DNA of 59,223 nt from a phage: assembly GCA_025276375.1 (NCBI GenBank), contig GCA_025276375.1_3645.1; one strand, written 5' to 3'. The first letter of the stretch is position 1, and the number at the start of each line of letters is the position of its first letter. Both the position numbers and the translations under genes were made by a program. The notes beneath the pieces are model-generated. The model worked only from the letters and a program-made list of their open reading frames with translations. It searched no databases and was not told the DNA's origin. Shown piece by piece: positions 47,198 to 59,223 of this stretch.

Positions 47198-47273
47198 CAA
47201 GAAGTAAGATTAGATATAAGATGCTTCACACAAACAGATCGGTGATTTTTAAATAACTAAGGGGACTGCCAAG

Positions 47274-47528: not shown

Positions 47529-47531
47529 TAC

Positions 47532-47560
47532 TTGACAACAGTGATAGGGCCTAATATAAT
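47532..47560 (+). promoter_or_regulatory. consensus sigma70 promoter TTGACA-N17-TATAAT with -10 inside a perfect 8-bp inverted repeat
   Basis: -35 at 47532-47537, -10 at 47555-47560; inverted repeat ATAGGGCC (47544-47551) / GGCCCTAT (47561-47568). Confidence 0.65.
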
Positions 47561-47591
47561 GGCCCTATCAAAACGAAAGGGGACCACAGCA

Positions 47592-47864: not shown

Positions 47865-48265
47865 TGAAAAACATTTGGGATATCAATATCTTTGAAGCCT
47901 CTGAGCTTGACGGTGCCGATGGGGTTATTATAGTTTCTGATGGAAAGGCAACACTGACCTCTGGACTGACCTATGAGGACACTACCTACGCATTGGGCGA
48001 TCTTGCCTTGTTGAAATCAACAGGCGACTCTCTGGAAGAACGTCTGCAAGGATTTGCCTTTAAAGAAGGCACAAACACCACACTGATGTGCACTACACGC
48101 ACTGTTCAGTTGGGCAACGGGGTATATATGGTCATTGCAGTGTGCCCCAAATTCAGCAACATTAATAAAGATGATGCTGACGCTGTCAACGACGTGGTTG
48201 TCCTATTCGTGGGTGACGCTATGGCAGATCTGATGAATGCAGGAGAAGCAGCAAATGAAGACTGA
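47861..48265 (+). CDS. hypothetical protein (134 aa)
   Basis: ATG overlapping upstream stop. Confidence 0.4.
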   Translation: MMKNIWDINIFEASELDGADGVIIVSDGKATLTSGLTYEDTTYALGDLALLKSTGDSLEERLQGFAFKEGTNTTLMCTTRTVQLGNGVYMVIAVCPKFSNINKDDADAVNDVVVLFVGDAMADLMNAGEAANED

Positions 48266-48557
48266 AAACATTACACCAGAAGGATTCCTGAAAGTATACC
48301 GTGAACTATTGTATACCACAGAGGATAGTGTTCTAGAGTACCCAGAATATCTTTTGCTGTATAAGTATCTGCAGGAAGCTGGTGAAAATCTTCCAATTAG
48401 CGCAGAAGGTGGTCCAAACTGGGTCTACAGTGCATGGAGAAAGGTTGACATTCTCCCAGATCCCGGTAAAGATATGGTAGTTTGGCAGCTTATCAACAAC
48501 ATCGGGATTCCAATCTTTGATGAAGCTGTTAAAATCTATTTTGAACTTGACGATTAA
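48255..48557 (+). CDS. hypothetical protein (100 aa)
   Basis: ATG 48255 after AGGAG at 8 nt. Confidence 0.4.
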   Translation: MKTENITPEGFLKVYRELLYTTEDSVLEYPEYLLLYKYLQEAGENLPISAEGGPNWVYSAWRKVDILPDPGKDMVVWQLINNIGIPIFDEAVKIYFELDD

Positions 48558-48574
48558 TATCAGGAGACCTTAAG

Positions 48575-48820
48575 ATGACTGAAGTAGTTGCTCGCGCAGG
48601 ACAGAAAGTACGTTGTGTTGAAGTAGGTTTTGGTGGCAAAGGGTGTCAAAACTTGACTCAAGGTAAGGAATACGCTGTTATCTCTGGTGGTGGCGACGAA
48701 AGTATTGTGTTCGAGGGCCACACCCTGGATGCTGAAAACTTTGAAATCTTTGACGACGATGGGGATCCGATCACCTGCCTGCTGGACGGGAATTGGGGAA
48801 CTTTCGAAGTGATTGGCTAA
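48575..48820 (+). CDS. hypothetical small protein (81 aa)
   Basis: AGGAG SD. Confidence 0.45.
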   Translation: MTEVVARAGQKVRCVEVGFGGKGCQNLTQGKEYAVISGGGDESIVFEGHTLDAENFEIFDDDGDPITCLLDGNWGTFEVIG

Positions 48821-48903
48821 CAAATACCTATTGTAATTTACAGAAGGGGATGCTAAAATAGTGTCTCCTTCTATGTTGTTCAAATAAAATCGGAGATTCC
48901 ATA

Positions 48904-49269
48904 ATGGAACAAATGAACGATCAAGCGTCGGTTGCGATGAACGAGCAAGAACAACCTCAAGAATTTTTCTTAGGGTTAAGTAAAGATCAAGTGTCTCTTC
49001 TGCTAGTGCTTTCTTCTTTCATGGGAAGACTTCAGGAGCTCACACAACAGCCAGAGGCTGAACAATTATTCCAAGCTTTGCGTGAAGAAGAAAAATATCG
49101 TCGTTTGGACTATGCCTTAGGTTGGGTAGCTCAACAACGAGATATGCTAATGGCCCTCTCTGGGACTACAAGTTTTGCAATGGGCCTGTTAGCTCAAGTT
49201 CAAGACAAATTAATTCAAGCAGGGTTTGCACACACGGCAAACACTAACGAAGAACAAGGAGATAAATAA
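48904..49269 (+). CDS. hypothetical protein (121 aa)
   Basis: GGAG SD. Confidence 0.4.
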   Translation: MEQMNDQASVAMNEQEQPQEFFLGLSKDQVSLLLVLSSFMGRLQELTQQPEAEQLFQALREEEKYRRLDYALGWVAQQRDMLMALSGTTSFAMGLLAQVQDKLIQAGFAHTANTNEEQGDK

Positions 49270-50540
49270 TGAGCGTTATTCAACAATTCGCTAACCCGAT
49301 GAATCCGCGTGAAACTGTTTTACTGGCTCACGGCATGATCAAGCGTGTTAGCATTAAACCTATTAAAGGGGCTGATCCTGCAACAGGTATTAAAACCACC
49401 GTGTGGCAAGGTAAGAAAATTGAATCCAGCCACACTATCTCTTTACTGATTTCTGAACTGGATTCCTCTGATAACCTGCTTCAAGGCGGTGAAGAAGTCT
49501 GGATCAGCATGGGTGATAAGCTGCTTAAACCGGGGCATCAAGACTCTGTCTCTGTTAAGATTGATGACAAGTGGGAAACCGTAACGCCAGGATGGATCGT
49601 AAATATTCCTTTGAAGGCAAACGAGCATAACGGTAAGACCTATTACAAAGGCTCACTGGCTAAGATGGTTAAGCTGGGTGTAGGAGAGGCTCCAGCAGCG
49701 ACTCAGCAGCAAAAACAGCAACAAGGTGCACAATCACAAGGCCAGAAGCAGAAACCTCAGCAGAATGCCAATCAGGACGTTTTACGCATCTATGGTGATG
49801 TGACTCAGATTGTTGGCAACGTGGTTACTGTCAATGACCACAAGATTGGCGAAGGTGCTATGGTTGTCACCGATGAGCAGCTTAAAGATCTGGTGGTAGG
49901 TGGTCGTGTTGCAGCCATTGTTGACAAAGACACCGGAAACATTATCAGTGGTTTCAAAGCCTATCCACCTAAGGCAGAGAACGGCACCCAAGGTTCTGGT
50001 GGCAAGCGTAAATCCTCTTACGACCCTATTGGTGTGGAGACGGGGCATAGCATCAATGCGTTGCAGATCATCCTGGATCGTGGGTTTAAGGTAGACGACC
50101 CACTAGGTGTGGCTAAAGCACTGCACGTAGTCACCATTGAGCTTAAGAAAGAGTATGCTCAAGCCACCAACCGAACTGAAGATGAAGTAGGTGCCAGTGT
50201 CGGTAATGCGGTGTTGAACGCTTGTCGCCGTATTGACAAGAAAACGAAAGTTGATGATTTTGCAGCGGCAATTACTGCAGAAGCAAAAGATGTGTTGACT
50301 AATCTGGCTGAGCCGTTGTACGATTGGATCAAGAACGGTGCTGGGTCAACTGACCATCAAGAACCTCAGGCTGCCAAACAGGAAGCAGCTCCACAGCAAA
50401 ACACTGTAGACGCTCCTCCTGTAAATGATGGGGAAGACGACCCGATGGATCAGAATCCGGCACAGTATGAGTTCTGTGATGACATACCTTTCGCTCCGGT
50501 GGGTTTGCAATATGGCAAAAGCAGAATCCACGCATTGTAA
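49269..50540 (+). CDS. putative ssDNA-binding protein (SSB-like acidic tail with DDIPF motif)
   Basis: Gln-rich linker, acidic C-terminal region containing 'DDIPF' (E. coli SSB ends DDDIPF); next to replication genes; no fold evidence. Confidence 0.35.
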
Positions 50541-51135
50541 GAGGTGCATCAAGTGCGGAGAGGTGAAAAACCTCTCCGAGTTCTACAAACACCCAAAGAT
50601 GTCTGACGGTCATCTTAATAAGTGCAAAGAGTGTTGCAAGAAGGCCAGCAGGGAGGCTGACCAATTTTCCCACGACTCTTCAGAAAAAGGTGTAATACGC
50701 GTGCTGTACAAGGCTCAAAAGTGCAACAGCAAGCAAAGAGGCCACCCTCCTCCGACTTACACCAAAAAAGAGTTTAAGGAGTGGCTATACCTGAACGGTT
50801 ACAAAGAGTTGTATGATCAGTGGGTAGCCAGCGGATACGACAAAAGGAAAAAGCCTTCTTGTGACAGGATAGACGATTTCAAAGGGTACTCTTTTGATAA
50901 TATCCGTTTAACGACCTGGGGAGAAAATAAAGACAAGCAGACGGAGGATATTCTATTGCATAGAAGCACCAGCGGTAGACGGTGTAAAAATGTAAGGAGG
51001 CTGGACATGAATGGAAACGTTCTTAAAGAATGGGTATCCCACAATTCTTGTAGAAGAGAAACCGGAATATGTGTTGATTACTACATTCATGAAAAAATTC
51101 CAGCCCCCGATGGATACCTCTACGAATACTTTTAA
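50512..51135 (+). CDS. zinc-ribbon / degenerate HNH-like protein
   Basis: ATG 50512 overlapping upstream gene; '[16 protein letters not shown]...CKEC' zinc ribbon; '[23 protein letters not shown]' HNH-like core lacking the first His. Confidence 0.4.
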
Positions 51136-51150
51136 CATCTAGTTAACATA

Positions 51151-51178
51151 GCCCTGCCCGAAAGGGTGGGGCATTTTT
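51151..51178 (+). terminator. intrinsic terminator, second copy of GCCCUGCCC-GAAA-GGGUGGGGC hairpin
   Basis: stem-loop identical to 39510-39531, followed by ATTTTTG. Confidence 0.7.
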
Positions 51179-51197
51179 GTATAAGGAGATCTGAAAA

Positions 51198-51614
51198 ATG
51201 ACATTAGAAGATATCATTGTTAAACCTGAGAACTATGACCAATACAACCTGTCAACTCAATCTGTAGACCTTGGATGCGCCACGGTCAGTGCGTGGCTGG
51301 TTAACGGAAAAGAGCTAGATAAATGCTTAGAAGCTCACATGTCTATTAACAAGTTTCTGGATGAAAATACTCACTGGCTTGAGGGTGCAGGAGTATATGC
51401 TTCATGGTTGGAGAGTATGGGATTTGACTACCAATCTGAAGAAGGGTGGTGGAGCTATTTAGCTATCTGCCCCGAGACGCTGCAATGCTTCATGAAATAT
51501 TCTGAAGATTTGGAGTACCGGGCGGTGGTTGATAGTGCTATTGCCCGTTATAGCCGTAAACCTTTTTCCCACGACATTAAAACTGTGGAAGAATTTGTTG
51601 AAGTTTTCTGTTGA
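51198..51614 (+). CDS. hypothetical protein (138 aa)
   Basis: AAGGAG SD. Confidence 0.45.
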   Translation: MTLEDIIVKPENYDQYNLSTQSVDLGCATVSAWLVNGKELDKCLEAHMSINKFLDENTHWLEGAGVYASWLESMGFDYQSEEGWWSYLAICPETLQCFMKYSEDLEYRAVVDSAIARYSRKPFSHDIKTVEEFVEVFC

Positions 51615-51710
51615 CACAGGTTGAAAGGTGTGCAATTATAACTTCATATAACGGGAGGACGCGATGAACGAAGAAAACTGGGATGTATAACTAACAGGAG
51701 GCCACTGCCC

Positions 51711-51908
51711 ATGATTTATCGAATCCGTGTAAGAGAAGATGCACCAGGCTGTTACTTTGACTGGCGTGGGTGGTGGTTTCTCCACCCAATGGATGGACTC
51801 ACAGATAGAATGCTGGATGCTGCCCTTTATACAGATACCGATATAGAATATAATCTCTATCTGAAGGACGGTATAGATAACGGCCTATTTGAAGCAATTC
51901 CTGTGTAA
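51711..51908 (+). CDS. hypothetical small protein (65 aa)
   Basis: AGGAGG SD. Confidence 0.45.
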   Translation: MIYRIRVREDAPGCYFDWRGWWFLHPMDGLTDRMLDAALYTDTDIEYNLYLKDGIDNGLFEAIPV

Positions 51909-51976
51909 GAGGCTGTGATAGCTATGTTTTATGATCTTCCTGTAGCACCACCACCTGTTGAACCCGGAGAACTAAG

Positions 51977-52402
51977 ATGATCTATGAAATGCCAAAACTG
52001 ATTCGCGACGATGCCCAAAACGCTCACACCATTATTATGGGCAAACGCATGGATATTATTTGTCATAGAGATTTCTGGGAAGGAAGTTACTTCACAGAGT
52101 ATTTTGGTAAACTGGACAATGGTCTGCTGATCCAGTTCTACACCGATGCGGAAAACAACATTCACTGGGAGTTCGAAACTGAAGATATTCATAAACTTTT
52201 CACCTTCCTCGGTATTAAGGTTGAGGCCAAGTTTGAAGAAGGCGAGTGCGACGATTGTGGATTCTACGAGGTAACAGATTTCTATCTCCCAAGTGGTGAG
52301 AACCTTTACTATGAAAGCCACTTCGGCAACTCAAATATGCCACAAGGTTGGGATGAGTTTTTTGAAATTGCGGAAGAGGAGCTGGCATACCGTGATTATT
52401 GA
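51977..52402 (+). CDS. hypothetical protein (141 aa)
   Basis: GGAG SD. Confidence 0.4.
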   Translation: MIYEMPKLIRDDAQNAHTIIMGKRMDIICHRDFWEGSYFTEYFGKLDNGLLIQFYTDAENNIHWEFETEDIHKLFTFLGIKVEAKFEEGECDDCGFYEVTDFYLPSGENLYYESHFGNSNMPQGWDEFFEIAEEELAYRDY

Positions 52403-52850
52403 TACTGTAGAGGGAGATTTAATCTCCCTTTTTAAGAGCGGTGCTGGTCACCTGATCCACGGTTGTAACTGCTTCCACACAATGGGCAAGGGGATAGCAA
52501 AACAGATTGCCCGTGAGTTCCCTCAAGCACTGGCAGCTGACAAAGAGACCAGACACGGTTGCCTAAGTAAACTGGGTGCGTTCTCCCGATGGGAGCACTT
52601 ATCTCCGAGAGGTATTGTCTACGGAATCAATCTGTATACTCAGTTCTACCCAGGACCTAATGCTGAATATTTCTCAATCCTGAAAGGCTTTGAGCTAGTC
52701 AATGAGGTATTCAGTGGATCGACTTTACCATTCTACATCCCTAAGATCGGGTGCGGCATAGGCGGTTTGAAGTGGGAGCACGTAGAGGACGTTATTAACC
52801 TTGCCACTTTTGATATGAATATTATCGTGGTGGAGTACAAAAAGTGTTGA
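52392..52850 (+). CDS. macro-domain-like protein (putative ADP-ribose binding/processing)
   Basis: 'GDLISLFKSGAGHLIHGCNCFHTMGKGIAKQIAREFP' and 'PKIGCGIGGL' match the two macro-domain glycine-rich motifs in the right order; GTG start after GAGGAG (uncertain). Confidence 0.45.
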   Translation: MIIDTVEGDLISLFKSGAGHLIHGCNCFHTMGKGIAKQIAREFPQALAADKETRHGCLSKLGAFSRWEHLSPRGIVYGINLYTQFYPGPNAEYFSILKGFELVNEVFSGSTLPFYIPKIGCGIGGLKWEHVEDVINLATFDMNIIVVEYKKC

Positions 52851-52875
52851 CAGCGGGTTTTTGAGATGGTATAGT
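52847..52875 (+). promoter_or_regulatory. sigma70-like promoter TTGACA-N17-TATAGT
   Basis: -35 at 52847-52852, -10 at 52870-52875. Confidence 0.6.
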
Positions 52876-52903
52876 CACCACAACGATTGAGAGAGGGAGC
52901 ACT

Positions 52904-53074
52904 ATGGAGACTAAAATCTTAATTCTGGCTGTGATAGATACAACCGAAGGGGCTGTGTTCGAATCTGCAGGAGGGTATTTCTACCTACCCTACGGAAAAA
53001 GAACTGCTGAACCAGGTAAAGATTCAATCATCAAAGTGTTCCCGTGTGCTTTCTGGCTGGAGATTTTGGTATAA
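52904..53074 (+). CDS. small ORF (56 aa), not in supplied ORF track
   Basis: hand-translated METKILILAVIDTTEGAVFE...; GAGAGGGAG SD; directly downstream of promoter 52847. Confidence 0.35.
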   Translation: METKILILAVIDTTEGAVFESAGGYFYLPYGKRTAEPGKDSIIKVFPCAFWLEILV

Positions 53075-53100
53075 GATTGCAGAGGATTTGGGAGAGAATT

Positions 53101-53295
53101 ATGAGAAACAAGAGAGAGCTTTACTCTGGCGAGTGGATAAACGATCAACAGGTTGGAGAGGTAACCTGCTTCCGGTGTTTTACTCGGTACAATCTTAAAA
53201 CTGCACCAAAAAGTGTTCCAAAGACTGATGGTTATTACATAAAAGAGCCTCATTGCCCGAAATGTAAATGCCGAGTATACTGGAGTAACCTGTAA
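53101..53295 (+). CDS. small zinc-ribbon protein (64 aa)
   Basis: ATG 53101 after GGAGAG; 'CFRC...CPKCKC'. Confidence 0.4.
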   Translation: MRNKRELYSGEWINDQQVGEVTCFRCFTRYNLKTAPKSVPKTDGYYIKEPHCPKCKCRVYWSNL

Positions 53296-53299
53296 AAGA

Positions 53300-53327
53300 T
53301 TGACATCTGAAAACTACAGTGTATAAT
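53300..53327 (+). promoter_or_regulatory. sigma70-like promoter TTGACA-N16-TATAAT
   Basis: -35 at 53300-53305, -10 at 53322-53327. Confidence 0.6.
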
Positions 53328-53358
53328 ATACGCACAGACTAACAGAGAGCGACGTATT

Positions 53359-53550
53359 ATGGTAATTTTTAACCGGGATGGCATCATAGTTAGACAGCAC
53401 CCCTTCCTTGAATACTATCAAATTGAGCAATGGTGCTACGGAGATTGCAGTCACTCCTATGGGCAAAGTTGGGGATATCGCACAGTTTTTGAATCAACAG
53501 ACCTTGACAAAGTAAGACAGAAAGTTTTAGAACTTATTAACAACAAGTGA
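53359..53550 (+). CDS. hypothetical small protein (63 aa)
   Basis: ATG downstream of promoter 53300. Confidence 0.4.
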   Translation: MVIFNRDGIIVRQHPFLEYYQIEQWCYGDCSHSYGQSWGYRTVFESTDLDKVRQKVLELINNK

Positions 53551-53560
53551 GTATCGTGCC

Positions 53561-53893
53561 ATGGTAACATTGGAAAGACGTAAAGCTATCGCCGCCACAC
53601 TGGCAGACATCTTTTGGGATTGCAACTTAAAAGATACCCGAAATTGTGGCGCATCTGTAGATGTATTATTCCCACGGCCCACCATTGTTGCAATGGGAAA
53701 CCTGTTAAACGTAGTGTACGGAGCATGGGACAAAGAAGGTGGATTCTATATCTGGCAACCTGACTACGGAGCCTGGAAAGAGGTAAGGGGTGCGGATGAC
53801 TTTGGGCCTACAGTTGCTAAGATGGATGGCTGGGAAATTTATGTTGGAAACGACATGAAGCTGAAAGGAGAGATTGTTTACTGGTTACCTTAA
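53561..53893 (+). CDS. hypothetical protein (110 aa)
   Basis: ORF with ATG. Confidence 0.4.
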   Translation: MVTLERRKAIAATLADIFWDCNLKDTRNCGASVDVLFPRPTIVAMGNLLNVVYGAWDKEGGFYIWQPDYGAWKEVRGADDFGPTVAKMDGWEIYVGNDMKLKGEIVYWLP

Positions 53894-53913
53894 GAAAGTG
53901 CAGGAGATAAAGT

Positions 53914-54159
53914 ATGAACAAAGGGTGGACATTTGTAGACGGCGTTAAAAACATGCCTCTAGGAAAGTATATCGTAGCCATGGCTGATGAGGATGGCAAT
54001 GTAGATTTCGGAGCTTGCGAGGTTGTTCTTGCAGGATCTGGTAACTATGTGAGTAAAACCGGGATAATTAACGGTCAGTTCTACTTTGATCACAACCCTG
54101 TTGTAGCGTATATGGCTATGCCAGAGTTCAAGTTCCCAAAGGAGGGTGCAGATGTTTAA
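53914..54159 (+). CDS. hypothetical small protein (81 aa)
   Basis: AGGAG SD. Confidence 0.45.
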   Translation: MNKGWTFVDGVKNMPLGKYIVAMADEDGNVDFGACEVVLAGSGNYVSKTGIINGQFYFDHNPVVAYMAMPEFKFPKEGADV

Positions 54160-54349
54160 GCTTAAATCTGCATGGAACATCGCTGTAGGGGACGAGATCC
54201 GTATCCCAGGTGGAAAGACCATTATGAAGATATCTCGTATTGAGTACGAAGGTGACCGTGTATTCCACATCTTCGCAGAAGATGGTCGAGAAATTTATAT
54301 ACAGGCAGGTTCTCACATCTATATCCGTAAGAAAGGGGACGACAAATGA
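54152..54349 (+). CDS. hypothetical small protein (65 aa)
   Basis: ATG 54152 after AAGGAGGG. Confidence 0.4.
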   Translation: MFKLKSAWNIAVGDEIRIPGGKTIMKISRIEYEGDRVFHIFAEDGREIYIQAGSHIYIRKKGDDK

Positions 54350-54675
54350 CAGAGATCATCATTTCAACTGCAGGGTATGTGTTCCTGACAATCATTGCAC
54401 TGACTATTTTGGTGACAGTGTATGGGTTTGTTATCCTTCCTATCCTTGAGACATTTAGTTTGTGTCGGTGTTGGAGAAAAGCTTACGGTCCACAACCATG
54501 GAAGGACTGGCCCCACCTGTTACGCATAGCGTTCTCTTATGCTTACGATCACTCCAGTAGTGCATGCATAACCGGATACCACGCCCACAACTGGAGCTGG
54601 GAAGGATTGAGGAAATGGAATGTTACAAAGACCATACCTCTACGCATGTACAAACCTAAAAACAAAGACAGCTGA
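54346..54675 (+). CDS. small membrane protein (109 aa)
   Basis: AAAGGGGA SD; hydrophobic helix 'GYVFLTIIALTILVTVYGFVILPIL'. Confidence 0.45.
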   Translation: MTEIIISTAGYVFLTIIALTILVTVYGFVILPILETFSLCRCWRKAYGPQPWKDWPHLLRIAFSYAYDHSSSACITGYHAHNWSWEGLRKWNVTKTIPLRMYKPKNKDS

Positions 54676-54987
54676 TACTTGAAAATTCCTGGCATATCAA
54701 GTGTAAGGGGGATTTCTAAAATGGATTTCCTCCTTTTGATATTTCACCGGGCTGGATATTTTAAAATTCTTAGAAAATCAGAAAATGGATCGAAAACTAA
54801 AATGGATTTTTCAGAGTAGGCGCGACAAGCTGAATAACTCATCCTATCGTTTGCACCATATTCCAGGCCACCATTATAGATTTCCCACACATGCTAACCT
54901 CCCTCTACTAGAACTTCCTCCACTTGCCCTTAACCTTCTATGGTAACAATCTAACCACTATCTTGAAGTTGCGGTGCAGCTTTCCAA

Positions 54988-55116
54988 GTACTCGATCTAC
55001 TTTTCATTTCATGGCTTGGATTTTCTGAAAATTTTTCTCGATAAATTTCTCAGTACTCGATCTGTTTTTCGTTTTCTGAATCGGATTTTCTGGAAATCGT
55101 TCCGGATCTCGACCTG
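54988..55116 (+). repeat. tandem direct repeat, two ~64-bp units (AGTACTCGATCT...GGATTTTCTG...)
   Basis: unit 1 at 54988-55051, unit 2 at 55052-55116, roughly 75 percent identical by eye. Confidence 0.6.
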
Positions 55117-55277
55117 AAATTTTTGGGGACGAAATCGATTTTTCGTTTTCAGAAATGGATTTTTAAAATTTCTATATGGGAATATTTTATGGTATACTGT
55201 TTTATAGGAAATTGTTACGGAGGGTAATTAGCATGCTAATTAAATTTATTAAATGCGAGGAGTTCTCATTTAGAATT

Positions 55278-55296
55278 TTGAATGATAATCATTCTC
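55278..55296. promoter_or_regulatory. Fur-box-like palindrome, site 1 (TTGAATGATAATCATTCTC)
   Basis: 15/19 match to GATAATGATAATCATTATC; core AATGAT-A-ATCATT is a perfect inverted repeat. Confidence 0.45.
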
Positions 55297-55413
55297 GTTT
55301 GCAGAATAACGGGCAGGCCCGGTGATTGTCTCCCGGCCCCTGTTGCCCCGGCTTGTTATTATAGTATCACACAGGACAAAGAAAGCAAGGATTTTTTGCA
55401 TAAATTTTTAAAT

Positions 55414-55432
55414 GATAATGATAACCGTTCTC
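55414..55432. promoter_or_regulatory. Fur-box-like palindrome, site 2 (GATAATGATAACCGTTCTC)
   Basis: 16/19 match to the Fur-box consensus; followed by sequence related to that after site 1. Confidence 0.4.
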
Positions 55433-55869
55433 ATTTTATGCAGCGCCCATCCCCGGTGGTTGTCTCCCCCGTCACCGGTGCCTGCCGTCCTTTCGATAGG
55501 TATATTGTGCCACCTGGCGGGGCCGCTGTCAACACTTTTCAAAAAATTTTTCTAACCTGATGCGCTAACCGCTGCAACCTGGCGGGGCCAGCCTGGCAGT
55601 ACCTAACTGACCAGGTAGGAGAGAATGAAGGCTTGTAAACCTGGTGGGCCTATGCTATAGGACAGGTAACAATTGAAGAGGAGGTACAAAAATAAAAGGT
55701 AATATGATCCCCTGGAAAATGTAGCTATTAATGACGCTGAGGCTATCGCCCTGGTAGAAAAGGCCATGGCGGGAGCGTTGGAACATAAAGAAGAGTACGA
55801 AAAAATGATGGTTAACCTGGCAGGGCGGCGGCAGGTGGATTCTATCATAAAAATAATTTAAAATAATTG

Positions 55870-55897
55870 TTGACAACCGGGGGAGTCCTGCTATTCT
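55870..55897 (+). promoter_or_regulatory. sigma70-like promoter TTGACA-N16-TATTCT
   Basis: -35 at 55870-55875; upstream of gene 55950. Confidence 0.45.
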
Positions 55898-55949
55898 TAC
55901 CCTACAAGGTGAACAACACCGCACTAACTAGTAAAGAGGATAAAAAATC

Positions 55950-56147
55950 ATGAACGCATACGGAATCAAAGTACGTCGCAACACTCGCCAGGCGGTCACC
56001 GATCAAGTGGTTTGCCTGGTGGATGTAACCATCAACAACGGGCAAGGCCTTTATAAATTTCGTCGCGGTCATAGCTATACCCTGCAACAGCTTAATCGTT
56101 GCGCCCTGACAAAAGGTCAGATCAATCACTGGTTTAATAAAAAATAA
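55950..56147 (+). CDS. hypothetical early protein (65 aa)
   Basis: AAAGAGGA SD. Confidence 0.45.
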   Translation: MNAYGIKVRRNTRQAVTDQVVCLVDVTINNGQGLYKFRRGHSYTLQQLNRCALTKGQINHWFNKK

Positions 56148-56150
56148 GTA

Positions 56151-56179
56151 TTGACATACGCCCCGACACAAAATATACT
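56151..56179 (+). promoter_or_regulatory. sigma70-like promoter TTGACA-N17-TATACT
   Basis: -35 at 56151-56156, -10 at 56174-56179. Confidence 0.65.
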
Positions 56180-56211
56180 GAAATCACAAAAGACACTAAG
56201 AGGATAAAATC

Positions 56212-56610
56212 ATGAAAACCACAACCTTTAATTTTGACAATGCCGACTTCTCTTTTTCTGATGTCAAGAACTGCCGCCGTGATCGTGGATTTTACAAGGC
56301 TTATAATCTGGTTGGCCTGGACGATGATAATAATTTGCACGAAGTAGCTGAGATCCGGTATTATGCCGCCGCCAGTGGGAACACTCATTATTGCGTTTTT
56401 TGGATACACGACAACAAGAACAATAAGTACGGTTATACTGGTGGCAAAGCGAGCGGTCACGGTTATGATAAGGCCAATGCAGCACTTGAAAGCGCGTTAA
56501 ATGCTATGGGGATCACTGCCAACGGCTGGATCTATGAAGAAGAGTTTTTGTCGGCACTTGCTGATCATCTAGGCTATAAAAAGCACATTGTAACATGCGC
56601 CCACGAATAA
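56212..56610 (+). CDS. hypothetical early protein (132 aa)
   Basis: AAGAGGA SD. Confidence 0.45.
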   Translation: MKTTTFNFDNADFSFSDVKNCRRDRGFYKAYNLVGLDDDNNLHEVAEIRYYAAASGNTHYCVFWIHDNKNNKYGYTGGKASGHGYDKANAALESALNAMGITANGWIYEEEFLSALADHLGYKKHIVTCAHE

Positions 56611-56616
56611 AAATCA

Positions 56617-56644
56617 TTGACACGCTGCAAAATTCAAGTAAACT
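56617..56644 (+). promoter_or_regulatory. sigma70-like promoter TTGACA-N16-TAAACT followed by 5'UTR hairpin GGCGGGA/TCCCGCC
   Basis: -35 at 56617-56622, -10 at 56639-56644; leader hairpin at 56655-56673. Confidence 0.55.
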
Positions 56645-56692
56645 AGGCACAAAAGGCGGGAATGTTTCCCGCCAACACGAAGGAAAAAGATC

Positions 56693-57097
56693 ATGAATAA
56701 GAACGTACGCCGTATCATGAACGAACTGGCAAACGATGAAAAAATTATTGACATGCATTTAGTCAACATTTGCCGCCGTTGTGTAACATATAACAACCGC
56801 GCCGCAAAAGCGCGTGGGATGAACGCAAAAGGCACCTTAAAGCCCTTCCAGGTGGTGGTAAAGGCCATTAAAGATGTAACTAATACAGCAAACCAGGTAC
56901 AGGGGAACACCAACGAGAGTACCAATATTGATCCGGCTTACATCATGAAACGGATCCGGACCTGCAAGAACAAAGAGCAAGTGTATAACGTCATAGACTG
57001 GTTGGATTCTATGGGCGACGTGGTGTACAATAGGTTTTCTGCAGCTATCGAGATCCAGCTTGACAGGTTGGACGGGAAAGTACTGAAAACTTATTAA
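56693..57097 (+). CDS. hypothetical early protein (134 aa)
   Basis: AAGGAAAAAG SD. Confidence 0.45.
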   Translation: MNKNVRRIMNELANDEKIIDMHLVNICRRCVTYNNRAAKARGMNAKGTLKPFQVVVKAIKDVTNTANQVQGNTNESTNIDPAYIMKRIRTCKNKEQVYNVIDWLDSMGDVVYNRFSAAIEIQLDRLDGKVLKTY

Positions 57098-57098
57098 G

Positions 57099-57144
57099 TT
57101 TATTTTCAGATGGCCTTGACTCCAGGGCCATCAATAAAGTAAAC
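57099..57144 (+). repeat. 46-nt repeated hairpin element, copy 1 (TTTATTTTCAGATGGCCTTGACTCCAGGGCCATCAATAAAGTAAAC)
   Basis: identical to 57722-57767; 6-bp stem ATGGCC/GGCCAT with 10-nt loop; begins 2 nt after a stop codon. Confidence 0.7.
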
Positions 57145-57178
57145 TAGTCTCAACTAAGCGAAAAAAGGGGGCTTTAAG

Positions 57179-57298
57179 ATGAGCACTGCACGCCAATACA
57201 CAAAGGTAACTATTATCGTTTGCGTTGTCGGTTACATCCTGGCGCAAATGTTAATGAGTAGCGCCAACAGTTTTGCAAAATTTTTCTTAAATTTTTAA
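57179..57298 (+). CDS. small hydrophobic ORF (39 aa), not in supplied ORF track
   Basis: hand-translated MSTARQYTKVTIIVCVVGYILAQMLMSSANSFAKFFLNF; AAGGGGG SD at 7-8 nt. Confidence 0.3.
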   Translation: MSTARQYTKVTIIVCVVGYILAQMLMSSANSFAKFFLNF

Positions 57299-57326
57299 TT
57301 GACAAGCTAACCCAAATCGGTATACT
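57299..57326 (+). promoter_or_regulatory. sigma70-like promoter TTGACA-N16-TATACT
   Basis: -35 at 57299-57304, -10 at 57321-57326; TATACTTAAACAC shared with promoter 59137. Confidence 0.65.
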
Positions 57327-57377
57327 TAAACACGTAAACGGGAAAACTTCCCAGAACACACAAAAGGAGAAAACACC

Positions 57378-57719
57378 ATGACTACTATGACCGCCGCAGA
57401 AAAAGCTATGCAGATCTCCGCGCTGAAAAAACAGATCGCAGACCTTGAGAACAAGATCGATAACTTTGAAATCGACGAGGACAAGTACGACGAAAACTAT
57501 GATGAATGGTTAGACGAGATCTACGGCGAAATTATGATCGGAAACATTTCTTTTCTTCCGTCGCGTATCCTCAAGGAGTTAGATCCTATCGCTTACCGCT
57601 GCGGATTTAGCGACTACATCGACAGCCTGGATATTGAGGACGATGAAGAATACCAGGAATTGCAGACAGAGCTGGAAGAAGTGAAAGAAGAGCTTTCAGA
57701 GCTGGAAGAAAACGAGTAA
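57378..57719 (+). CDS. highly acidic coiled-coil protein (113 aa)
   Basis: AAGGAG SD; Asp/Glu-rich throughout ('DEDKYDENYDEWLDEIYGE', 'DIEDDEEYQELQTELEEVKEELSELEENE'). Confidence 0.5.
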   Translation: MTTMTAAEKAMQISALKKQIADLENKIDNFEIDEDKYDENYDEWLDEIYGEIMIGNISFLPSRILKELDPIAYRCGFSDYIDSLDIEDDEEYQELQTELEEVKEELSELEENE

Positions 57720-57721
57720 AA

Positions 57722-57767
57722 TTTATTTTCAGATGGCCTTGACTCCAGGGCCATCAATAAAGTAAAC
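57722..57767 (+). repeat. 46-nt repeated hairpin element, copy 2
   Basis: identical to 57099-57144; begins 3 nt after stop of 57378-57719. Confidence 0.7.
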
Positions 57768-57806
57768 TTTACACTGTTAACACTGAACTAATGAGGAGTT
57801 AAAACC

Positions 57807-58052
57807 ATGGCAGCACTAATCACAAAATATTATGCGCCCACCAACACTAAAAGCGCCCGGATCATGGTAAAAGGCTTCGGACGTAAAAAGGTTTACACCT
57901 GGGATTATTCCCTGGACATGGAAGACAACTACACCAACGCGATGACCGATTTTATTAACGAGCTGAATACGCGGATCTTAACAAATTATAAAATTACCGA
58001 CATTGCTTATATAGGTGAAGGCGGGATCTGTTTTGTAGGCATTGTGAAATAG
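57807..58052 (+). CDS. hypothetical early protein (81 aa)
   Basis: GAGGAG SD. Confidence 0.45.
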   Translation: MAALITKYYAPTNTKSARIMVKGFGRKKVYTWDYSLDMEDNYTNAMTDFINELNTRILTNYKITDIAYIGEGGICFVGIVK

Positions 58053-58125
58053 TTATTTTTCGGTGGTCCTGGCTGCAGGGCCATCTATAAAGATAATTTA
58101 TTAACACCATGAAAGGAGAAAGTAC

Positions 58126-58473
58126 ATGATCAGCGGGGCTAGTTTTATTATTGGCGCTATTGCTACGGCTTTAATTGTAAACAAGATCCAATCTAAAAAC
58201 GAAAAAGATAGCAACGCGCTCACAGAATACCCATTTTGGGTATTCAACGACAACGAAGACTACATAATCAAGTACAAAGATGAGAGAGGCGACCAGGTAA
58301 CACCGCGACCGATCCCAGCTTACAAGATGCAAGAAACACTATACCGCCTAAAGGCCGGAGGCGCAAAGATCGTAGACTTTTGGGGATATGATTGCAAGGA
58401 TCAGGAGGTTATAAAACGGCGTATCCGGGCGATTCAGGCAAATATTGAAATCAGTAAAGGGGGAAATTTATGA
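58126..58473 (+). CDS. hypothetical early protein with N-terminal hydrophobic helix (115 aa)
   Basis: AAAGGAG SD; 'ISGASFIIGAIATALIV'. Confidence 0.45.
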   Translation: MISGASFIIGAIATALIVNKIQSKNEKDSNALTEYPFWVFNDNEDYIIKYKDERGDQVTPRPIPAYKMQETLYRLKAGGAKIVDFWGYDCKDQEVIKRRIRAIQANIEISKGGNL

Positions 58474-58667
58474 AAATTAATTTCGAAAAAATTGTAAAGC
58501 GCCCCCACGATTCCGAAGAGCTGCCGGAACGCCGCCAGCGTAACAATAAACTGAATAAGCCGAAAAGGTTCGGGAAGATCTGGAGGAATCACTATGATCG
58601 CAAATTACCGGGCCTGCTTTTGGAACGTGAACGACAGGCAGAACGATACCGCCATAAAGACAAATAA
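58470..58667 (+). CDS. small basic protein (65 aa)
   Basis: AAAGGGGGA SD; Arg/Lys-rich. Confidence 0.4.
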   Translation: MKINFEKIVKRPHDSEELPERRQRNNKLNKPKRFGKIWRNHYDRKLPGLLLERERQAERYRHKDK

Positions 58668-58675
58668 CAACCAAC

Positions 58676-58703
58676 GCCCCGCCATTGTGCGGGGCTTTTT
58701 ATT
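58676..58703 (+). terminator. intrinsic terminator GCCCCGC-CATTGT-GCGGGGC plus UUUUUAUUUC
   Basis: 7-bp GC stem followed by T-tract, 9 nt after stop. Confidence 0.75.
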
Positions 58704-58826
58704 TCTATCCTACGAATAGCGCCCCTGGTTGGCCCTATAAGTGCCAAAAAGGCCCCCACCTATGCAATCGCCCCCCTTTAACCTGAAAACATCGCCCAGG
58801 GCCGTTTTATGGCGTTAAAAATATCA

Positions 58827-58854
58827 TTGACATCGTCAACAGGTTAGCTATACT
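58827..58854 (+). promoter_or_regulatory. sigma70-like promoter TTGACA-N16-TATACT
   Basis: -35 at 58827-58832, -10 at 58849-58854. Confidence 0.65.
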
Positions 58855-58886
58855 AACCACATCAAAGAGAGAAAGGAGTAAACGCC

Positions 58887-59147
58887 ATGCGTAAATTAAA
58901 AAATTTTGATAAAGTCGATATTGTCCTGAATAATTTTTACTACTGCAATAATAAAGCCGTTTGGTGGCGTGATAGTTCCACCGATAAAGTTAAAGCGCGC
59001 TTTCTCCAGGGGCACTGGCAAGGCCGCCCAGTGATTAAAATCTTAGGGCAATTGGTAGCGTTTAAAAATTGCCGCCGTGTTGATGACGTTGAAGATATTC
59101 TAAACATTTTACGCCACAATAATTTAAAAAATAGTGTTGACAAGTAA
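58887..59147 (+). CDS. hypothetical early protein (86 aa)
   Basis: AAAGGAG SD. Confidence 0.45.
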   Translation: MRKLKNFDKVDIVLNNFYYCNNKAVWWRDSSTDKVKARFLQGHWQGRPVIKILGQLVAFKNCRRVDDVEDILNILRHNNLKNSVDK

Positions 59148-59164
59148 ATCTCGATAAGTATACT
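59137..59164 (+). promoter_or_regulatory. sigma70-like promoter TTGACA-N16-TATACT followed by 5'UTR hairpin GGCGGGA/TCCCGCC
   Basis: -35 at 59137-59142, -10 at 59159-59164; leader hairpin at 59176-59194; AGGAG at 59209-59213 implies a gene starting at the window edge. Confidence 0.6.
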
Positions 59165-59223
59165 TAAACACACAGGCGGGAAAACTTCCCGCCACTAACA
59201 AAGAAAATAGGAGAAAATATCAT

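What the first reader, a model, noticed from the sequence alone, without database searches (positions are those of the whole stretch)
54676..55949. ORF-poor 1.27-kb region with tandem repeats and reiterated short motifs: candidate origin or regulatory hub
This is the only long stretch without a convincing SD-led ORF. It contains a 2 x 64-bp tandem direct repeat (54988-55116), four copies of AAATGGAT (54718, 54783, 54800, 55153), repeated TTTTCGTTTTC[TA]GAA, and three to four copies of ACCTGG[CT]GGGGCC-like GC-rich words (55512, 55577, 55639, 55815). Iteron-like repeats next to an AT-rich segment are typical of replication origins or packaging/terminal regions, and the region separates the middle genes from the early cassettes.
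Basis: seen in the sequence. Interest (0 to 1): 0.55.

Follow-up and report, generated by a model that had tools for sequence, protein, structure and literature searches.

The report
Conserved Fur-box control region, rV5-like phage
A gene-free stretch of about 0.9 kb in an rV5-like E. coli phage is a deeply conserved control region (three phased repeats, an AT-rich stretch, two binding-site sequences for the host iron sensor Fur, and two host-type promoters firing backwards into it); it may be a replication start or an iron-sensing RNA switch, and neither has been tested.

Summary
The repeats and words sit where stated and exceed chance. The window is part of a Vequintavirus (rV5-like, about 137 kb).

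The true non-coding core is 54676 to about 55630. The right-hand third holds a broken small early ORF and early promoters. Within the genus, 55026-55525 is more conserved than the flanking genes. The same layout recurs at the syntenic site in at least eight genera of two subfamilies.

Read right to left on the minus strand, the core contains:
- two tandem sigma70 promoters (55532-55504 and 55388-55358);
- after each promoter, a conserved GC-rich leader and a Fur-box palindrome;
- an AT-rich stretch (55130-55309, 22-30% GC);
- three phased iterons (54978-55163).

The Fur call rests on three results. The boxes match the E. coli Fur consensus at 15-16 of 19 positions. Box 1 shares 16 consecutive bases with the fhuA operator. 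The perfect form of the box lies next to iron-uptake genes in many bacteria.

The region is not a genome terminus: in EdH4 the 459-bp terminal repeat lies about 11 kb away.

Function is inferred, not shown. I favour Fur-gated leftward non-coding transcription that activates a T7-like origin. An RNA or insulator role is a close rival.

The parts
54674..54809 (+). Two copies of an 81-bp direct repeat (54674-54728 and 54755-54809), each ending in CTAAAATGGATTT. They carry three of the AAATGGAT words, which resemble the 3' half of the iterons (GGATTTTC).
   Evidence: families D4, D9. Conserved in the genus at 0.91-0.94.
54826..54975 (.). Variable spacer, the least conserved part of the region.
   Evidence: 0.74-0.80 identity per 50 bp; many substitutions in L016.
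54978..55163 (+). Three phased iterons (54978-55024, 55043-55089, 55117-55163). Core motif: CTCGATCnnTTTTTCgTTTTC...GGATTTTC. Spacing is 65 and 74 bp.
   Evidence: There are exactly three homologous units, spaced 63-78 bp, in Kashira, PBES02, Hena1 and PVP-SE1. GATC is enriched here.
55130..55309 (.). The most AT-rich stretch of the region (22-30% GC). It lies between iteron 3 and the GC-rich leaders and overlaps iteron 3, the palindrome and the Fur-type boxes.
55225..55242 (.). 18-bp perfect palindrome TAATTAGCATGCTAATTA. Role unknown.
   Evidence: Read. Conserved in the genus.
55251..55271 (.). Degenerate Fur-type box (AAATGCGAGGAGTTCTCATTT). Only the right half is intact. It aligns with full boxes of other genera.
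   Evidence: alignment. In relatives the boxes form tandem arrays of 3-4 at 29-38 bp spacing (L003 family D1 and L010 family D3).
55278..55301 (.). Fur box 1, with 7-1-7 core TGATAATCATTCTCG at 55283-55297. It matches the 19-bp Fur consensus at 15 of 19 positions. Bases 55285-55300 are identical to 16 consecutive bases of the E. coli K-12 fhuA operator.
55278..55307 (+). Doubtful rightward promoter-like pair TTGAAT-18-CAGAAT with box 1 in its spacer (8 of 12 consensus matches).
   Evidence: Read. One search shows the second hexamer is CTGAAT or CGGAAT in some genera, so the key A is not conserved. Fur hexamers themselves mimic -10 and -35 hexamers.
55309..55352 (-). GC-rich module A1, the leader of the inner leftward promoter. 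Its invariant motif is GAGACAATCACCG on the minus strand (CGGTGATTGTCTC at 55320-55332 on the + strand).
   Evidence: Conserved at 72-88% in eight genera. It folds no better than shuffled sequence.
55358..55388 (-). Inner leftward sigma70 promoter P_L2: -35 TTGCTT (55388-55383), 19-nt spacer, -10 TATAAT (55363-55358). Predicted start near 55352.
   Evidence: 7-10 of 12 at the same position in 17 genomes, with 16-17-nt spacers outside this genus. The independent scan flagged the PVP-SE1 copy.
55414..55433 (.). Fur box 2, GATAATGATAACCGTTCTC. It matches the Fur consensus at 16 of 19 positions.
   Evidence: the only hit in the window at up to 3 mismatches, against 0.03 expected. Also.
55441..55497 (-). 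GC-rich module A2, the leader of the outer leftward promoter. It is a diverged copy of A1 (GGTGGTTGTCTC at 55455-55466). It occupies the place where other genera have a structured element, 'block 4'.
   Evidence: (families D6, D13).
55504..55532 (-). Outer leftward sigma70 promoter P_L1: TTGACA (55532-55527), 17-nt spacer, TG-extended CACAAT (55509-55504). Predicted start near 55497. One ACCTGGCGGGGCC word forms its spacer.
   Evidence: 10 of 12, with TG; 9-12 of 12 at the same position in all 30 sequences from at least eight genera.
55577..55589 (+). Second ACCTGGCGGGGCC word, in a poorly conserved stretch. It may be a remnant of a duplication of the P_L1 spacer.
55633..55661 (+). Rightward promoter TTGTAA-17-TATAGG of the small early ORF. 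The third ACCTGG word lies in its spacer.
   Evidence: Read.
55692..55861 (+). Broken small early ORF. The start codon is ATA here and ATG in relatives. A 1-nt deletion in a run of C near 55709 shifts the frame. The fourth ACCTGG word lies inside it.
   Evidence: The ORF is 60 aa in MaxTheCat (bas57_0100).
55870..55949 (+). Promoter TTGACA-16-TATTCT and 5' UTR of the first early gene (55950-56147).

Best explanation
The region is a conserved non-coding control region at the boundary between the middle and early genes of rV5-like phages.

Proposed mechanism. Two tandem promoters of the host sigma70 type (P_L1 and P_L2) fire leftward, against the direction of every neighbouring gene. Each transcript runs through a conserved GC-rich leader and then across a Fur operator. 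It then enters an ORF-less, AT-rich stretch followed by three phased iterons. I propose that iron-loaded host Fur, bound at the boxes, gates how much of this transcription reaches the AT-rich and iteron DNA. I further propose that the invading transcript opens or primes this DNA as a replication origin. The model is the primary origin of T7: tandem promoters followed by an AT-rich segment, used by a gp4-type primase-helicase and a family A polymerase without a dedicated initiator protein.

Shown here:
- the anatomy of the region;
- its conservation in at least eight genera;
- the consensus quality of the promoters;
- the identity of the boxes with genuine bacterial Fur operators;
- the absence of an ORF downstream of the leftward promoters;
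- the T7-like replisome genes;
- that the region is not a terminus.

Inferred, not shown:
- that the promoters fire;
- that Fur binds;
- that Fur acts as a gate;
- that replication starts here.
For: Constraint. 55026-55525 is 0.96-0.998 identical among nine Vequintavirus genomes, against about 0.93 in the flanking genes.

Same layout elsewhere. The same architecture sits at the syntenic gap in Phapecoctavirus, Seunavirus, Mydovirus, Certrevirus, Henunavirus and a Serratia phage.

Promoters.
- P_L1 scores 9-12 of 12 in 30 of 30 sequences although its spacer sequence differs between them.
- P_L2 scores 7-10 of 12 in 17 of 17 sequences.
- In PVP-SE1 an independent scan finds 4 promoter-like sites, all on the minus strand, against 1.0 expected.

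Fur boxes.
- They match the Fur consensus at 16 of 19 and 15 of 19 positions; the chance expectation at up to 3 mismatches is 0.03 per window.
- Box 1 shares 16 consecutive bases with the fhuA operator.
- The perfect 19-mer form occurs in more than 120 bacterial genomes.
- Of the first 30 ORFs starting within 150 nt of that 19-mer, about half are iron or metal uptake genes: TonB-dependent receptors, FTR1, FeoA, a FUR-family regulator, a siderophore monooxygenase, Fe3+ binding proteins.
- The boxes keep one consensus across phages of seven host genera while the iterons diverge. That fits recognition by a conserved host protein.

Origin-like features.
- Exactly three iterons at 63-78 bp spacing in each of the five Vequintavirinae genomes compared.
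- An adjacent stretch of 22-30% GC.
- GATC enrichment in the iterons.
- Replisome genes about 10-20 kb upstream: PIF1 helicase, DnaB-type primase-helicase and PolA. No initiator was found among the 10 largest upstream ORFs scanned.

Structured RNA in relatives. Downstream of P_L1, relatives carry a structured element with real covariation: 22 double-change cells, reached by 0 of 500 shuffles. So at least this leftward transcript, or its antisense, is under RNA-level (or single-strand-level) selection.
Against: - No experiment of any kind bears on transcription, Fur binding or origin activity in this phage group (literature searches).
- The iterons are 45-60 nt units spaced 65-78 bp, unlike the 17-22 bp iterons of classical origins.
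- There is no DnaA box or IHF consensus in the region.
- GC skew gives no origin signal. It falls across the region although transcription direction is unchanged. The rV5 authors likewise found only transcription-linked skew changes (PMC3606486).
- A second large ORF-free region (about 2.9 kb) surrounds the terminal repeat and could equally hold the origin.
- The same promoter + leader (+ box) module occurs elsewhere in the genome in front of an ordinary early gene. The module is therefore a gene-expression device, not something specific to origins.
- The Fur boxes lie about +55 to +85 downstream of the predicted starts, which is not the usual promoter-occluding position.
- P_L2 has a poor 19-nt spacer in this genus.
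- The leaders are not more stably folded than shuffled sequence.
Confidence: 0.38

Rival explanations
1. A purely regulatory RNA or insulator locus. The leftward promoters make early non-coding RNA. That RNA acts in trans, or acts as antisense or by transcriptional interference against read-through from the middle operon. Fur makes the output respond to iron. The iterons bind a phage or host protein, or act as weak terminators of the rightward middle operon. No replication role.
For: - The conserved promoters and leaders are reused in front of an early gene at the second copy of the module.
- Block 4, downstream of P_L1 in 226 phage records, has a covarying hairpin.
- An invariant 13-nt motif flanked by variable sequence looks like an sRNA seed.
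- On the + strand the PVP-SE1 iterons read as 6-bp hairpins followed by GUAUUUUUUCU.
- The element H3 of block 4 is flagged as terminator-like on the + strand.
Against: - No clear terminator ends the leftward RNA in the window.
- No target for the motif was found in the window.
- There is no Rfam family.
- The terminator scan did not flag the iterons as terminators in PVP-SE1 or PBES02.
- This reading does not explain why the number and phasing of the iterons are conserved.
Confidence: 0.32
2. The palindromic boxes are operators of a phage-encoded regulator, or RNA hairpins, and their likeness to Fur boxes is a coincidence.
For: - The palindrome extends to 9-1-9 (AATGAGAAT-C-ATTCTCATT), beyond the 7-1-7 Fur core.
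- Similar words open the terminal repeat of EdH4.
- As RNA the box would fold into a hairpin.
Against: - The exact 19-mer is strongly over-represented in bacterial genomes and sits at iron-uptake promoters.
- Box 1 shares 16 consecutive bases with the fhuA operator.
- The consensus is unchanged across phages of many host genera, whereas the neighbouring iterons co-vary with genus.
Confidence: 0.15
3. A boundary of a T5-like first-step-transfer region. Under this reading, the repeat-rich non-coding block about 8-9% from the genome end would stop or pause DNA injection after the early genes have entered.
For: The region lies 10.9-12.3 kb from the left end of a 136-kb genome. Only small early genes lie between it and the end. 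From my own knowledge, the geometry recalls the pre-early region and the repeat-rich injection stop signal of T5.
Against: - These are contractile-tailed phages with a 459-bp terminal repeat, not a 10-kb one.
- It is not known which end enters first.
- No homologue of T5 A1/A2 was looked for.
- This reading explains neither the promoters nor the Fur boxes.
Confidence: 0.05
4. A packaging or terminal region (pac or cos site, terminal repeat).
For: Fur-like words also occur in the real terminal repeat.
Against: EdH4 (96.5% identical here) carries its 459-bp direct terminal repeat at the record ends, about 11 kb away (PMC6563267). In GenBank records this region lies at arbitrary internal positions.
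Confidence: 0.02
5. Decaying coding DNA or a neutral spacer whose repeats arose by chance or by slippage.
For: One small ORF at the right edge really is decaying. The stretches 54826-54975 and 55576-55675 are poorly conserved.
Against: The core is more conserved than the flanking genes. It is retained across two subfamilies. The repeat statistics are far beyond those of shuffled sequence.
Confidence: 0.03

Closest known systems
Fur-repressed bacterial promoters (E. coli fhuA; the aerobactin iucA promoter from my own knowledge)
   Same: The operator sequence is the same. Box 1 has 16 consecutive bases identical to the fhuA operator and matches the consensus at 15-16 of 19 positions. Relatives have tandem arrays of boxes, as at strongly Fur-controlled promoters.
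   Different: The boxes are in a strictly lytic phage. They lie downstream of the predicted starts of promoters that have no ORF, not over a -35/-10 of an iron-uptake gene. Fur binding is untested.
Primary origin of phage T7 (tandem promoters phi1.1A and phi1.1B followed by an AT-rich segment; from established knowledge)
   Same: Two tandem promoters fire into an AT-rich, ORF-free segment. The replisome is of the T7 type (gp4-like primase-helicase, family A polymerase). The region lies between the early genes and the DNA-metabolism genes.
   Different: The promoters are of the host sigma70 type. About 150-200 nt of GC-rich leader and Fur boxes intervene. Three iterons follow. No initiation data exist.
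ColE1 RNA II / RNA I primer control
   Same: A strong promoter makes a structured, ORF-less transcript towards an AT-rich region. There may be a convergent weak promoter inside the transcribed leader.
   Different: The convergent promoter is doubtful. No RNase H-type processing site or origin has been identified. Copy-number control is not an obvious need for a lytic phage.
Iteron origins (lambda ori, P1 oriR, theta plasmids)
   Same: At least three direct repeats in one orientation lie next to an AT-rich segment. GATC is enriched.
   Different: The units are 45-60 nt at 65-78 bp spacing, not 17-22 bp. There are no DnaA or IHF sites. No adjacent initiator gene was recognised.
RyhB-type Fur-repressed small RNAs
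   Same: A Fur operator is associated with a short non-coding transcription unit that has a conserved single-stranded-looking motif.
   Different: There is no sequence or Rfam similarity. No clear terminator is present. The better-supported promoters have the box downstream, not over the promoter.

Membership tests
Fur operator (Fur box) | Match to the 19-bp consensus GATAATGATAATCATTATC, or to the 7-1-7 core TGATAATnATTATCA. | tested here: met
   Box 2 matches 16 of 19 and is the only hit in the window at up to 3 mismatches (0.03 expected). Box 1 matches 15 of 19. The genuine fhuA operator scores 14 of 19 on the same count. The 7-1-7 cores have 1-2 mismatches.
Fur operator (Fur box) | The same sequence is used at bacterial iron-regulated promoters. 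| tested here: met
   Box 1 shares 16 consecutive bases with the K-12 fhuA promoter. The perfect phage 19-mer occurs in more than 120 species genomes. About half of the first 30 adjacent ORFs are iron or metal uptake genes or fur itself.
Fur operator (Fur box) | The operator overlaps the -35/-10 of the regulated promoter. | tested here: inconclusive
   Box 1 lies in the spacer of TTGAAT-18-CAGAAT (8 of 12), but the key A of the -10 is not conserved in all genera. Relative to the well-supported leftward promoters the boxes lie at about +55 to +85.
Fur operator (Fur box) | Binding by metal-loaded Fur, and iron-dependent expression. | not testable with these tools
   Needs EMSA or footprinting, a Fur titration assay, or a fur mutant.
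Iteron-type replication origin | Three or more direct repeats in the same orientation. | tested here: met
   Three units at 54978-55163. Three units in each of four other genera.
Iteron-type replication origin | Iterons of about 17-22 bp, spaced about two helical turns apart. | tested here: not met
   The units are 45-60 nt, spaced 63-78 bp.
Iteron-type replication origin | An adjacent AT-rich unwinding element. | tested here: met
   55130-55309 is 22-30% GC.
Iteron-type replication origin | Host-factor sites (DnaA boxes, IHF). | tested here: not met
   No TTWTNCACA and no WATCAANNNNTTR in the region.
Iteron-type replication origin | A cognate initiator gene nearby. | tested here: inconclusive
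   Pfam on the 10 largest upstream ORFs gives helicases, a methylase and PolA but no initiator. The small ORFs were not examined.
Transcription-activated origin (T7 primary origin type) | Promoter(s) reading into an AT-rich, ORF-free segment. | tested here: met
   P_L1 and P_L2 lie on the minus strand and are followed by 55309-55130. No plausible minus-strand ORF is present.
Transcription-activated origin (T7 primary origin type) | A T7-type replisome (gp4-like primase-helicase plus family A polymerase). | tested here: met
   DnaB_C/AAA_25 in the 40309-42387 protein; DNA_pol_A in the 42446-44875 protein (the latter below Pfam's curated cut-off, E = 1.5e-6).
Transcription-activated origin (T7 primary origin type) | RNA-to-DNA transition, or an initiation bubble, at the site. 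| not testable with these tools
   Needs marker-frequency analysis, 2D gels or primer mapping.
Genome terminus / packaging site | The site lies at or next to the physical ends or the terminal repeat. | tested here: not met
   The first 459 bp of the EdH4 record equal its last 459 bp. The region is at 10891-12289 of that record.
Described RNA families (Rfam 15), tRNA/tmRNA | A covariance-model hit at or near the gathering score. | tested here: not met
   No hit in the window at gathering thresholds. Nothing with E up to 1 in seven relatives. Only chance-level hits in the region. No tRNA.
'Block 4' structured element of the other rV5-like genera | Sequence and structure match to a covariance model built from 27 sequences (two hairpins). 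| tested here: not met
   The best match in window 53500-57500 with filters off scores 4.7 bits, E = 0.6. nhmmer aligns the window only to the block 3 part.

The most novel reading that the evidence does not exclude
Strictly lytic phages of two subfamilies (Vequintavirinae and Stephanstirmvirinae, several hundred sequenced genomes) wire the host iron sensor Fur into their early programme. Fur operators gate tandem leftward promoters whose ORF-less transcript switches on a T7-like, transcription-primed origin. The start of phage DNA replication, which depends on an iron-requiring dNTP supply, would then be coupled to the iron status of the infected cell.
Probability: 0.15. Interest if true: 0.8.

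Novelty: new variant of a known kind. Interest (0 to 1): 0.6.

Why it matters
rV5-like phages are widely used in therapy and biocontrol cocktails. Their replication origin, their early regulation and most of their early genes are unknown.

If the boxes bind Fur, this would be a clear case of a virulent phage reading a host metal-sensing regulator. It would predict that infection differs between iron-replete broth and the iron-poor gut or infected tissue.

If the region is the origin, it identifies the origin for a large phage group. It would also give a host-RNAP version of the T7 origin design.

In either case the conserved elements need attention in the databases. They are unannotated in nearly all records or covered by spurious ORFs, and annotation pipelines should mask those ORFs. 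The elements concerned are three iterons, Fur boxes, two promoters, the 13-nt motif and, in other genera, a covarying hairpin element present in 226 records.

Tried and rejected
- Rfam at gathering and at permissive thresholds on the window and on seven relatives: nothing. tRNA/tmRNA: none.
- Terminal or packaging site: rejected from the EdH4 ends.
- DnaA and IHF sites: none in the region.
- Coding potential. The annotated small ORFs in the core (rV5 ORF197-199 and others) lack ribosome-binding sites and are absent in other genera. The small minus-strand genes that sit right of P_L1 in other genera leave no tblastn trace in the window.
- Block 3 as a stable RNA hairpin or terminator. The stems are not consistently compensated, and folding is no better than for shuffled sequence on either strand (mean z = -0.4 and -0.7).
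- A 14-bp long-range pairing between A1 and A2 appears in the fold of the window. It is not compensated in natural GG-to-CC variants.
- Which strand of block 4 is the functional one: energies differ by only 1.8 kcal/mol, so this is undecided.
- The covariance model of block 4 finds nothing in the window.
- A target for the conserved 13-nt motif within the window: chance level.
- My first reading was a rightward Fur-repressed sRNA promoter (TTGAAT/CAGAAT). I downgraded it after finding that its -10 is not conserved, and that a well-conserved leftward promoter reads the same module in the opposite sense.
- Iterons as intrinsic terminators: not flagged by the scan in PVP-SE1 or PBES02.
- Literature searches for transcriptomics, origin mapping or Fur boxes in these phages found nothing relevant.
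- The 'non-coding' box of the rV5 paper could not be placed, because the figures are not held.
Full report
IDENTITY OF THE WINDOW. The stretch 54600-56000 matches 122 phage records by megablast, 109 of them over at least 80% of its length, at 83-97% identity. Nearly all are Escherichia Vequintavirus (rV5-like myophages of about 137 kb). The window is therefore a 59-kb piece of such a genome.

Upstream on the + strand lie a PIF1-like helicase (35196-36566), an N6/N4 DNA methylase (36966-38291), a DnaB-type primase-helicase (40309-42387) and a family A polymerase (42446-44875). Downstream, from 55870, lie small ORFs, each with its own near-consensus TTGACA/TATACT promoter.

THE OBSERVATION. Every listed feature is present and exceeds chance.
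- Four of the five AAATGGAT copies in the window lie here.
- TTTTCGTTTTCWGAA gives 4 hits against 0.47 expected.
- The ACCTGG words give 7 hits against 1.3 expected.
- The tandem repeat is a three-copy imperfect array (54978-55024, 55043-55089, 55117-55163). Its best 47-nt match is 37/47, about ten standard deviations above dinucleotide shuffles.

Two corrections are needed. First, a further 81-bp two-copy repeat carries the left-hand AAATGGAT words. Second, 55633-55949 is not really non-coding. It holds a promoter (TTGTAA-17-TATAGG) and a GAGGAGG ribosome-binding site. It also holds a 60-codon early ORF that is intact in relatives but broken here, by ATG to ATA and by a 1-nt deletion. The promoter and leader of the first early gene follow.

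CONSERVATION. Among nine Vequintavirus genomes, 55026-55525 is the most conserved half-kilobase within 3 kb on either side. Its identity per 50 bp is 0.96-0.998, against about 0.93 in the flanking genes. The stretches 54826-54975, 55576-55675 and 55826-55925 are the least conserved.

A sensitive BLAST finds the sub-segment around 55240-55400 in 249 records, including Phapecoctavirus, Seunavirus, Mydovirus, Certrevirus, Henunavirus and Serratia and Enterobacter phages. The match is 70-88% identical, and in most of the rows listed for these genera nothing is annotated under it. I fetched eight such loci. Each has an ORF-poor gap of roughly 0.4-1.4 kb at the syntenic place, with the same order of elements.

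ANATOMY. The region is best read right to left on the minus strand.

(a) P_L1. This is TTGACA-17-(TG)CACAAT at 55532-55504. It is one of only three minus-strand sites scoring 9 or more of 12 within the finding's coordinates, and the best of them, in the tool's scan of 54000-59223. A promoter scoring 9-12 of 12 occupies the same position in all 30 sequences compared, although its spacer sequence differs.

(b) Module A2. This GC-rich leader (55497-55441) contains GGTGGTTGTCTC.

(c) Fur box 2 (55414-55433).

(d) P_L2. A positional scan anchored on the conserved motif in 14 genomes showed that the most consistently promoter-like position on either strand is a second minus-strand site. There the -35 is TTGCAA, TTGATC, TTGCTT or TTGACC; the spacer is 16-17 nt; and the -10 is TATATT, TATTAT, TATTCT, GATAAT or GATACT. 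It scores 7-10 of 12 in 17 of 17 genomes. In the window it is TTGCTT-19-TATAAT (55388-55358). The independent scan flags it in PVP-SE1 together with P_L1 and a third leftward promoter. That makes four sites, all on the minus strand, against 1.0 expected.

(e) Module A1 (55352-55309). It contains the invariant CGGTGATTGTCTC.

(f) Fur box 1 (55278-55301) and a degenerate box (55251-55271).

(g) An 18-bp perfect palindrome (55225-55242), within the most AT-rich stretch of the region (55130-55309, 22-30% GC).

(h) The three iterons.

Units (a)-(c) and (d)-(f) are a tandem duplication about 135-146 bp apart (families D6 and D13). No plausible ORF lies downstream of the leftward promoters.

THE BOXES ARE FUR OPERATORS BY SEQUENCE. 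The consensus of the phage box across genera is the palindrome AATGAGAAT-C-ATTCTCATT. Its core, TGAGAATcATTCTCA, differs from the 7-1-7 Fur core TGATAATnATTATCA at one symmetric position per half-site (7-1-7 core from established knowledge).
- The classical 19-bp consensus (quoted for example in PMC4506495) matches 55414-55432 with three mismatches. That is the only such site in the window, against 0.03 expected.
- Box 1 scores 15 of 19. The genuine fhuA operator scores 14 of 19 on the same count.
- I fetched the K-12 fhuA promoter. It reads tttATAATAATCATTCTCGTTTACg, and 16 consecutive bases are identical to window 55285-55300.
- As an independent test I scanned one genome per bacterial species for the perfect 19-mer.
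- I took the first 30 ORFs that start within 150 nt of the site, in list order. They include four TonB-dependent receptors, two FTR1 iron permeases and two FeoA proteins. They also include a FUR-family regulator, a lysine/ornithine N-monooxygenase, two Fe3+-type binding proteins, a ZnuA, a PepSY_TM protein and a PF00756 esterase.

The sequence is therefore one that bacteria use as a Fur operator. The boxes keep this consensus in phages of Escherichia, Salmonella, Klebsiella, Serratia, Pectobacterium, Erwinia and Cronobacter, while the neighbouring iterons change with genus. That fits recognition by a conserved host protein. Binding itself is untested.

THE ITERONS. Kashira, PBES02, Hena1 and PVP-SE1 each have exactly three units, spaced 63-78 bp. 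The units share CTCGATCGGTTTTTC(A/G)TTTTC...CGTATT(T/C)TC and an A-tract/T-tract junction. Phapecoctavirus has different repeats at the same place. GATC is enriched about three-fold in the iterons of most genera, but not in Hena1. Within the window the motif occurs only here.

STRUCTURED RNA IN RELATIVES, NOT HERE. Between P_L1 and P_L2, all genera except Vequintavirus carry 'block 4' (CTACCGGCGATCCACCTTCC...GTTAGCCCCGCC...GGGGTGGCG), which is present in 226 phage records. One of its hairpins shows real covariation: A:U in 17 sequences against G:C in 10 at one pair, and C:G in 24 against G:C in 3 at another. In all there are 22 double-change cells, a number reached by 0 of 500 shuffles, and pairing collapses when partners are slid. 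Which strand is functional is undecided. A covariance model of block 4 finds nothing in the window (4.7 bits). Vequintavirus has module A2 at that position instead.

Modules A1 and A2 themselves fold no better than shuffled sequence. Their stems are not consistently compensated, so what is conserved there is primary sequence.

A second, inverted copy of the promoter + leader (+ box) module lies about 9 kb away, outside the window. In EdH4 it is at 2206-2298 and has the promoter TTGCAA-16-TATACT. There it points at an ordinary early gene. This indicates that the functional sense of the module is the window's minus strand. The rightward 'promoter' TTGAAT-18-CAGAAT around box 1 is doubtful for two reasons. 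Its -10 is CTGAAT or CGGAAT in some genera. Fur hexamers also mimic promoter hexamers.

NOT A TERMINUS. EdH4 and HdK5 were reported to have 458-bp terminal redundancies (PMC6563267). In the EdH4 record the first 459 bases equal the last 459. The region lies at 10891-12289 of that record, with only small early genes between it and the end. The terminus is therefore about 7-8 kb beyond the right edge of the window.

MECHANISM. The following is shown: a constrained, ORF-less DNA segment into which two conserved host-type promoters point, each followed by a conserved leader and a Fur-operator sequence, and then by AT-rich DNA and three phased repeats. All of this sits in a phage whose replisome is of the T7 type.

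By analogy with the T7 primary origin (two tandem promoters followed by an AT-rich segment; established knowledge), I favour a transcription-activated origin whose activating transcription is gated by Fur. My confidence is about 0.38.

The close rival (about 0.32) is a purely regulatory locus. In that case the leftward RNA would be an sRNA, or an antisense or interference device insulating the early from the middle transcription units, with iron responsiveness.

My estimates for the individual steps:
- the leftward promoters are active: about 0.8;
- Fur binds the boxes: about 0.75;
- an origin lies here: about 0.35.

The main counter-arguments are these:
- the atypical geometry of the iterons;
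- no DnaA or IHF sites;
- uninformative skew (PMC3606486);
- another large ORF-free region at the termini;
- reuse of the module in front of a normal gene;
- the downstream position of the boxes relative to the predicted starts.

NOVELTY. I found no paper that describes Fur boxes, an origin or a transcript map for these phages. The rV5 paper reports only sigma70 promoters, terminators and an unsuccessful skew search for the origin. Fur operators, promoter-driven origins and iterons are each known kinds. Their combination in a lytic phage, conserved across two subfamilies, would be a new variant. It remains a computational inference.

Noticed in passing
window 55692-55861: A small early ORF (60 aa in MaxTheCat, bas57_0100) with its own promoter and a GAGGAGG ribosome-binding site is inactivated in this phage. 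The start codon is ATA instead of ATG, and a 1-nt deletion in a run of C near 55709 shifts the frame. It could be a real pseudogene or, for the deletion, a homopolymer sequencing error.
   Followed up: partly
L011 (EdH4, MK327930.1) 1-460 and 1-1468; L012: The 459-bp direct terminal repeat of EdH4 opens with three Fur-box-like words (GGAATGGGAATACTTCTCATTC, GAATGAGAATACCTATCATTG, TGTGAGAACTGTTATCATTAC), followed by ACGGGCA as in module A1. About 2.9 kb around the genome ends is ORF-free.
   Followed up: partly
L011 2206-2298; L047 4309-4419; L236 4974-5084; L078 1174-1309; L115 4012-4121: A second, inverted copy of the promoter + GC-rich leader (+ Fur-type box in some genera) module lies 7-9 kb from the main locus, between early genes and next to a bidirectional terminator-like hairpin. 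In EdH4 it points at gene EdH4_00002.
   Followed up: partly
L004 3139-3237 and homologues (226 phage records): 'Block 4', an element of about 100 nt with a covarying hairpin, is conserved in Seunavirus, Mydovirus, Certrevirus, Phapecoctavirus and Justusliebigvirus. It is unannotated in nearly all records, has no Rfam family, and is absent from Vequintavirus.
   Followed up: partly
whole window: The DnaA-box consensus TTWTNCACA occurs once, against 7.9 +/- 2.6 expected from shuffles. This may reflect avoidance of the sequence.
   Followed up: no
GenBank records MG0656xx: Sixteen to seventeen records named 'Campylobacter phage', with host given as C. jejuni, are 93-95% identical here to E. coli Vequintavirus. 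Others match Phapecoctavirus. The host assignment is probably wrong, or the phage stocks were contaminated.
   Followed up: no
window 55225-55242: An 18-bp perfect palindrome, TAATTAGCATGCTAATTA, lies in the AT-rich stretch between the iterons and the boxes. It is conserved in the genus and its role is unknown.
   Followed up: no
rV5 ORF197-199 (L247 4487-5622), ECML10_000150, bas57_0097-0099, PVP-SE1 gp202 (L004 2674-2958): Annotated hypothetical proteins lie over the iterons, boxes and leaders. They are very probably spurious gene calls.
   Followed up: partly
window 41000-59000: The GC skew of the + strand drops from 0.11-0.19 to 0.02-0.03, and the AT skew rises to 0.18-0.19, at this region. 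The genes stay on the + strand throughout. The middle and early modules therefore differ in composition.
   Followed up: no
L003, L005, L007 (88-aa type) and L004, L006 (about 60-aa type), right of P_L1: Other genera have a small minus-strand gene immediately upstream of P_L1. It comes in two unrelated types. The -35 of P_L1 sits at or in a GC-rich hairpin, often with a GCAA loop, at the end of that gene. The window has neither gene.
   Followed up: partly
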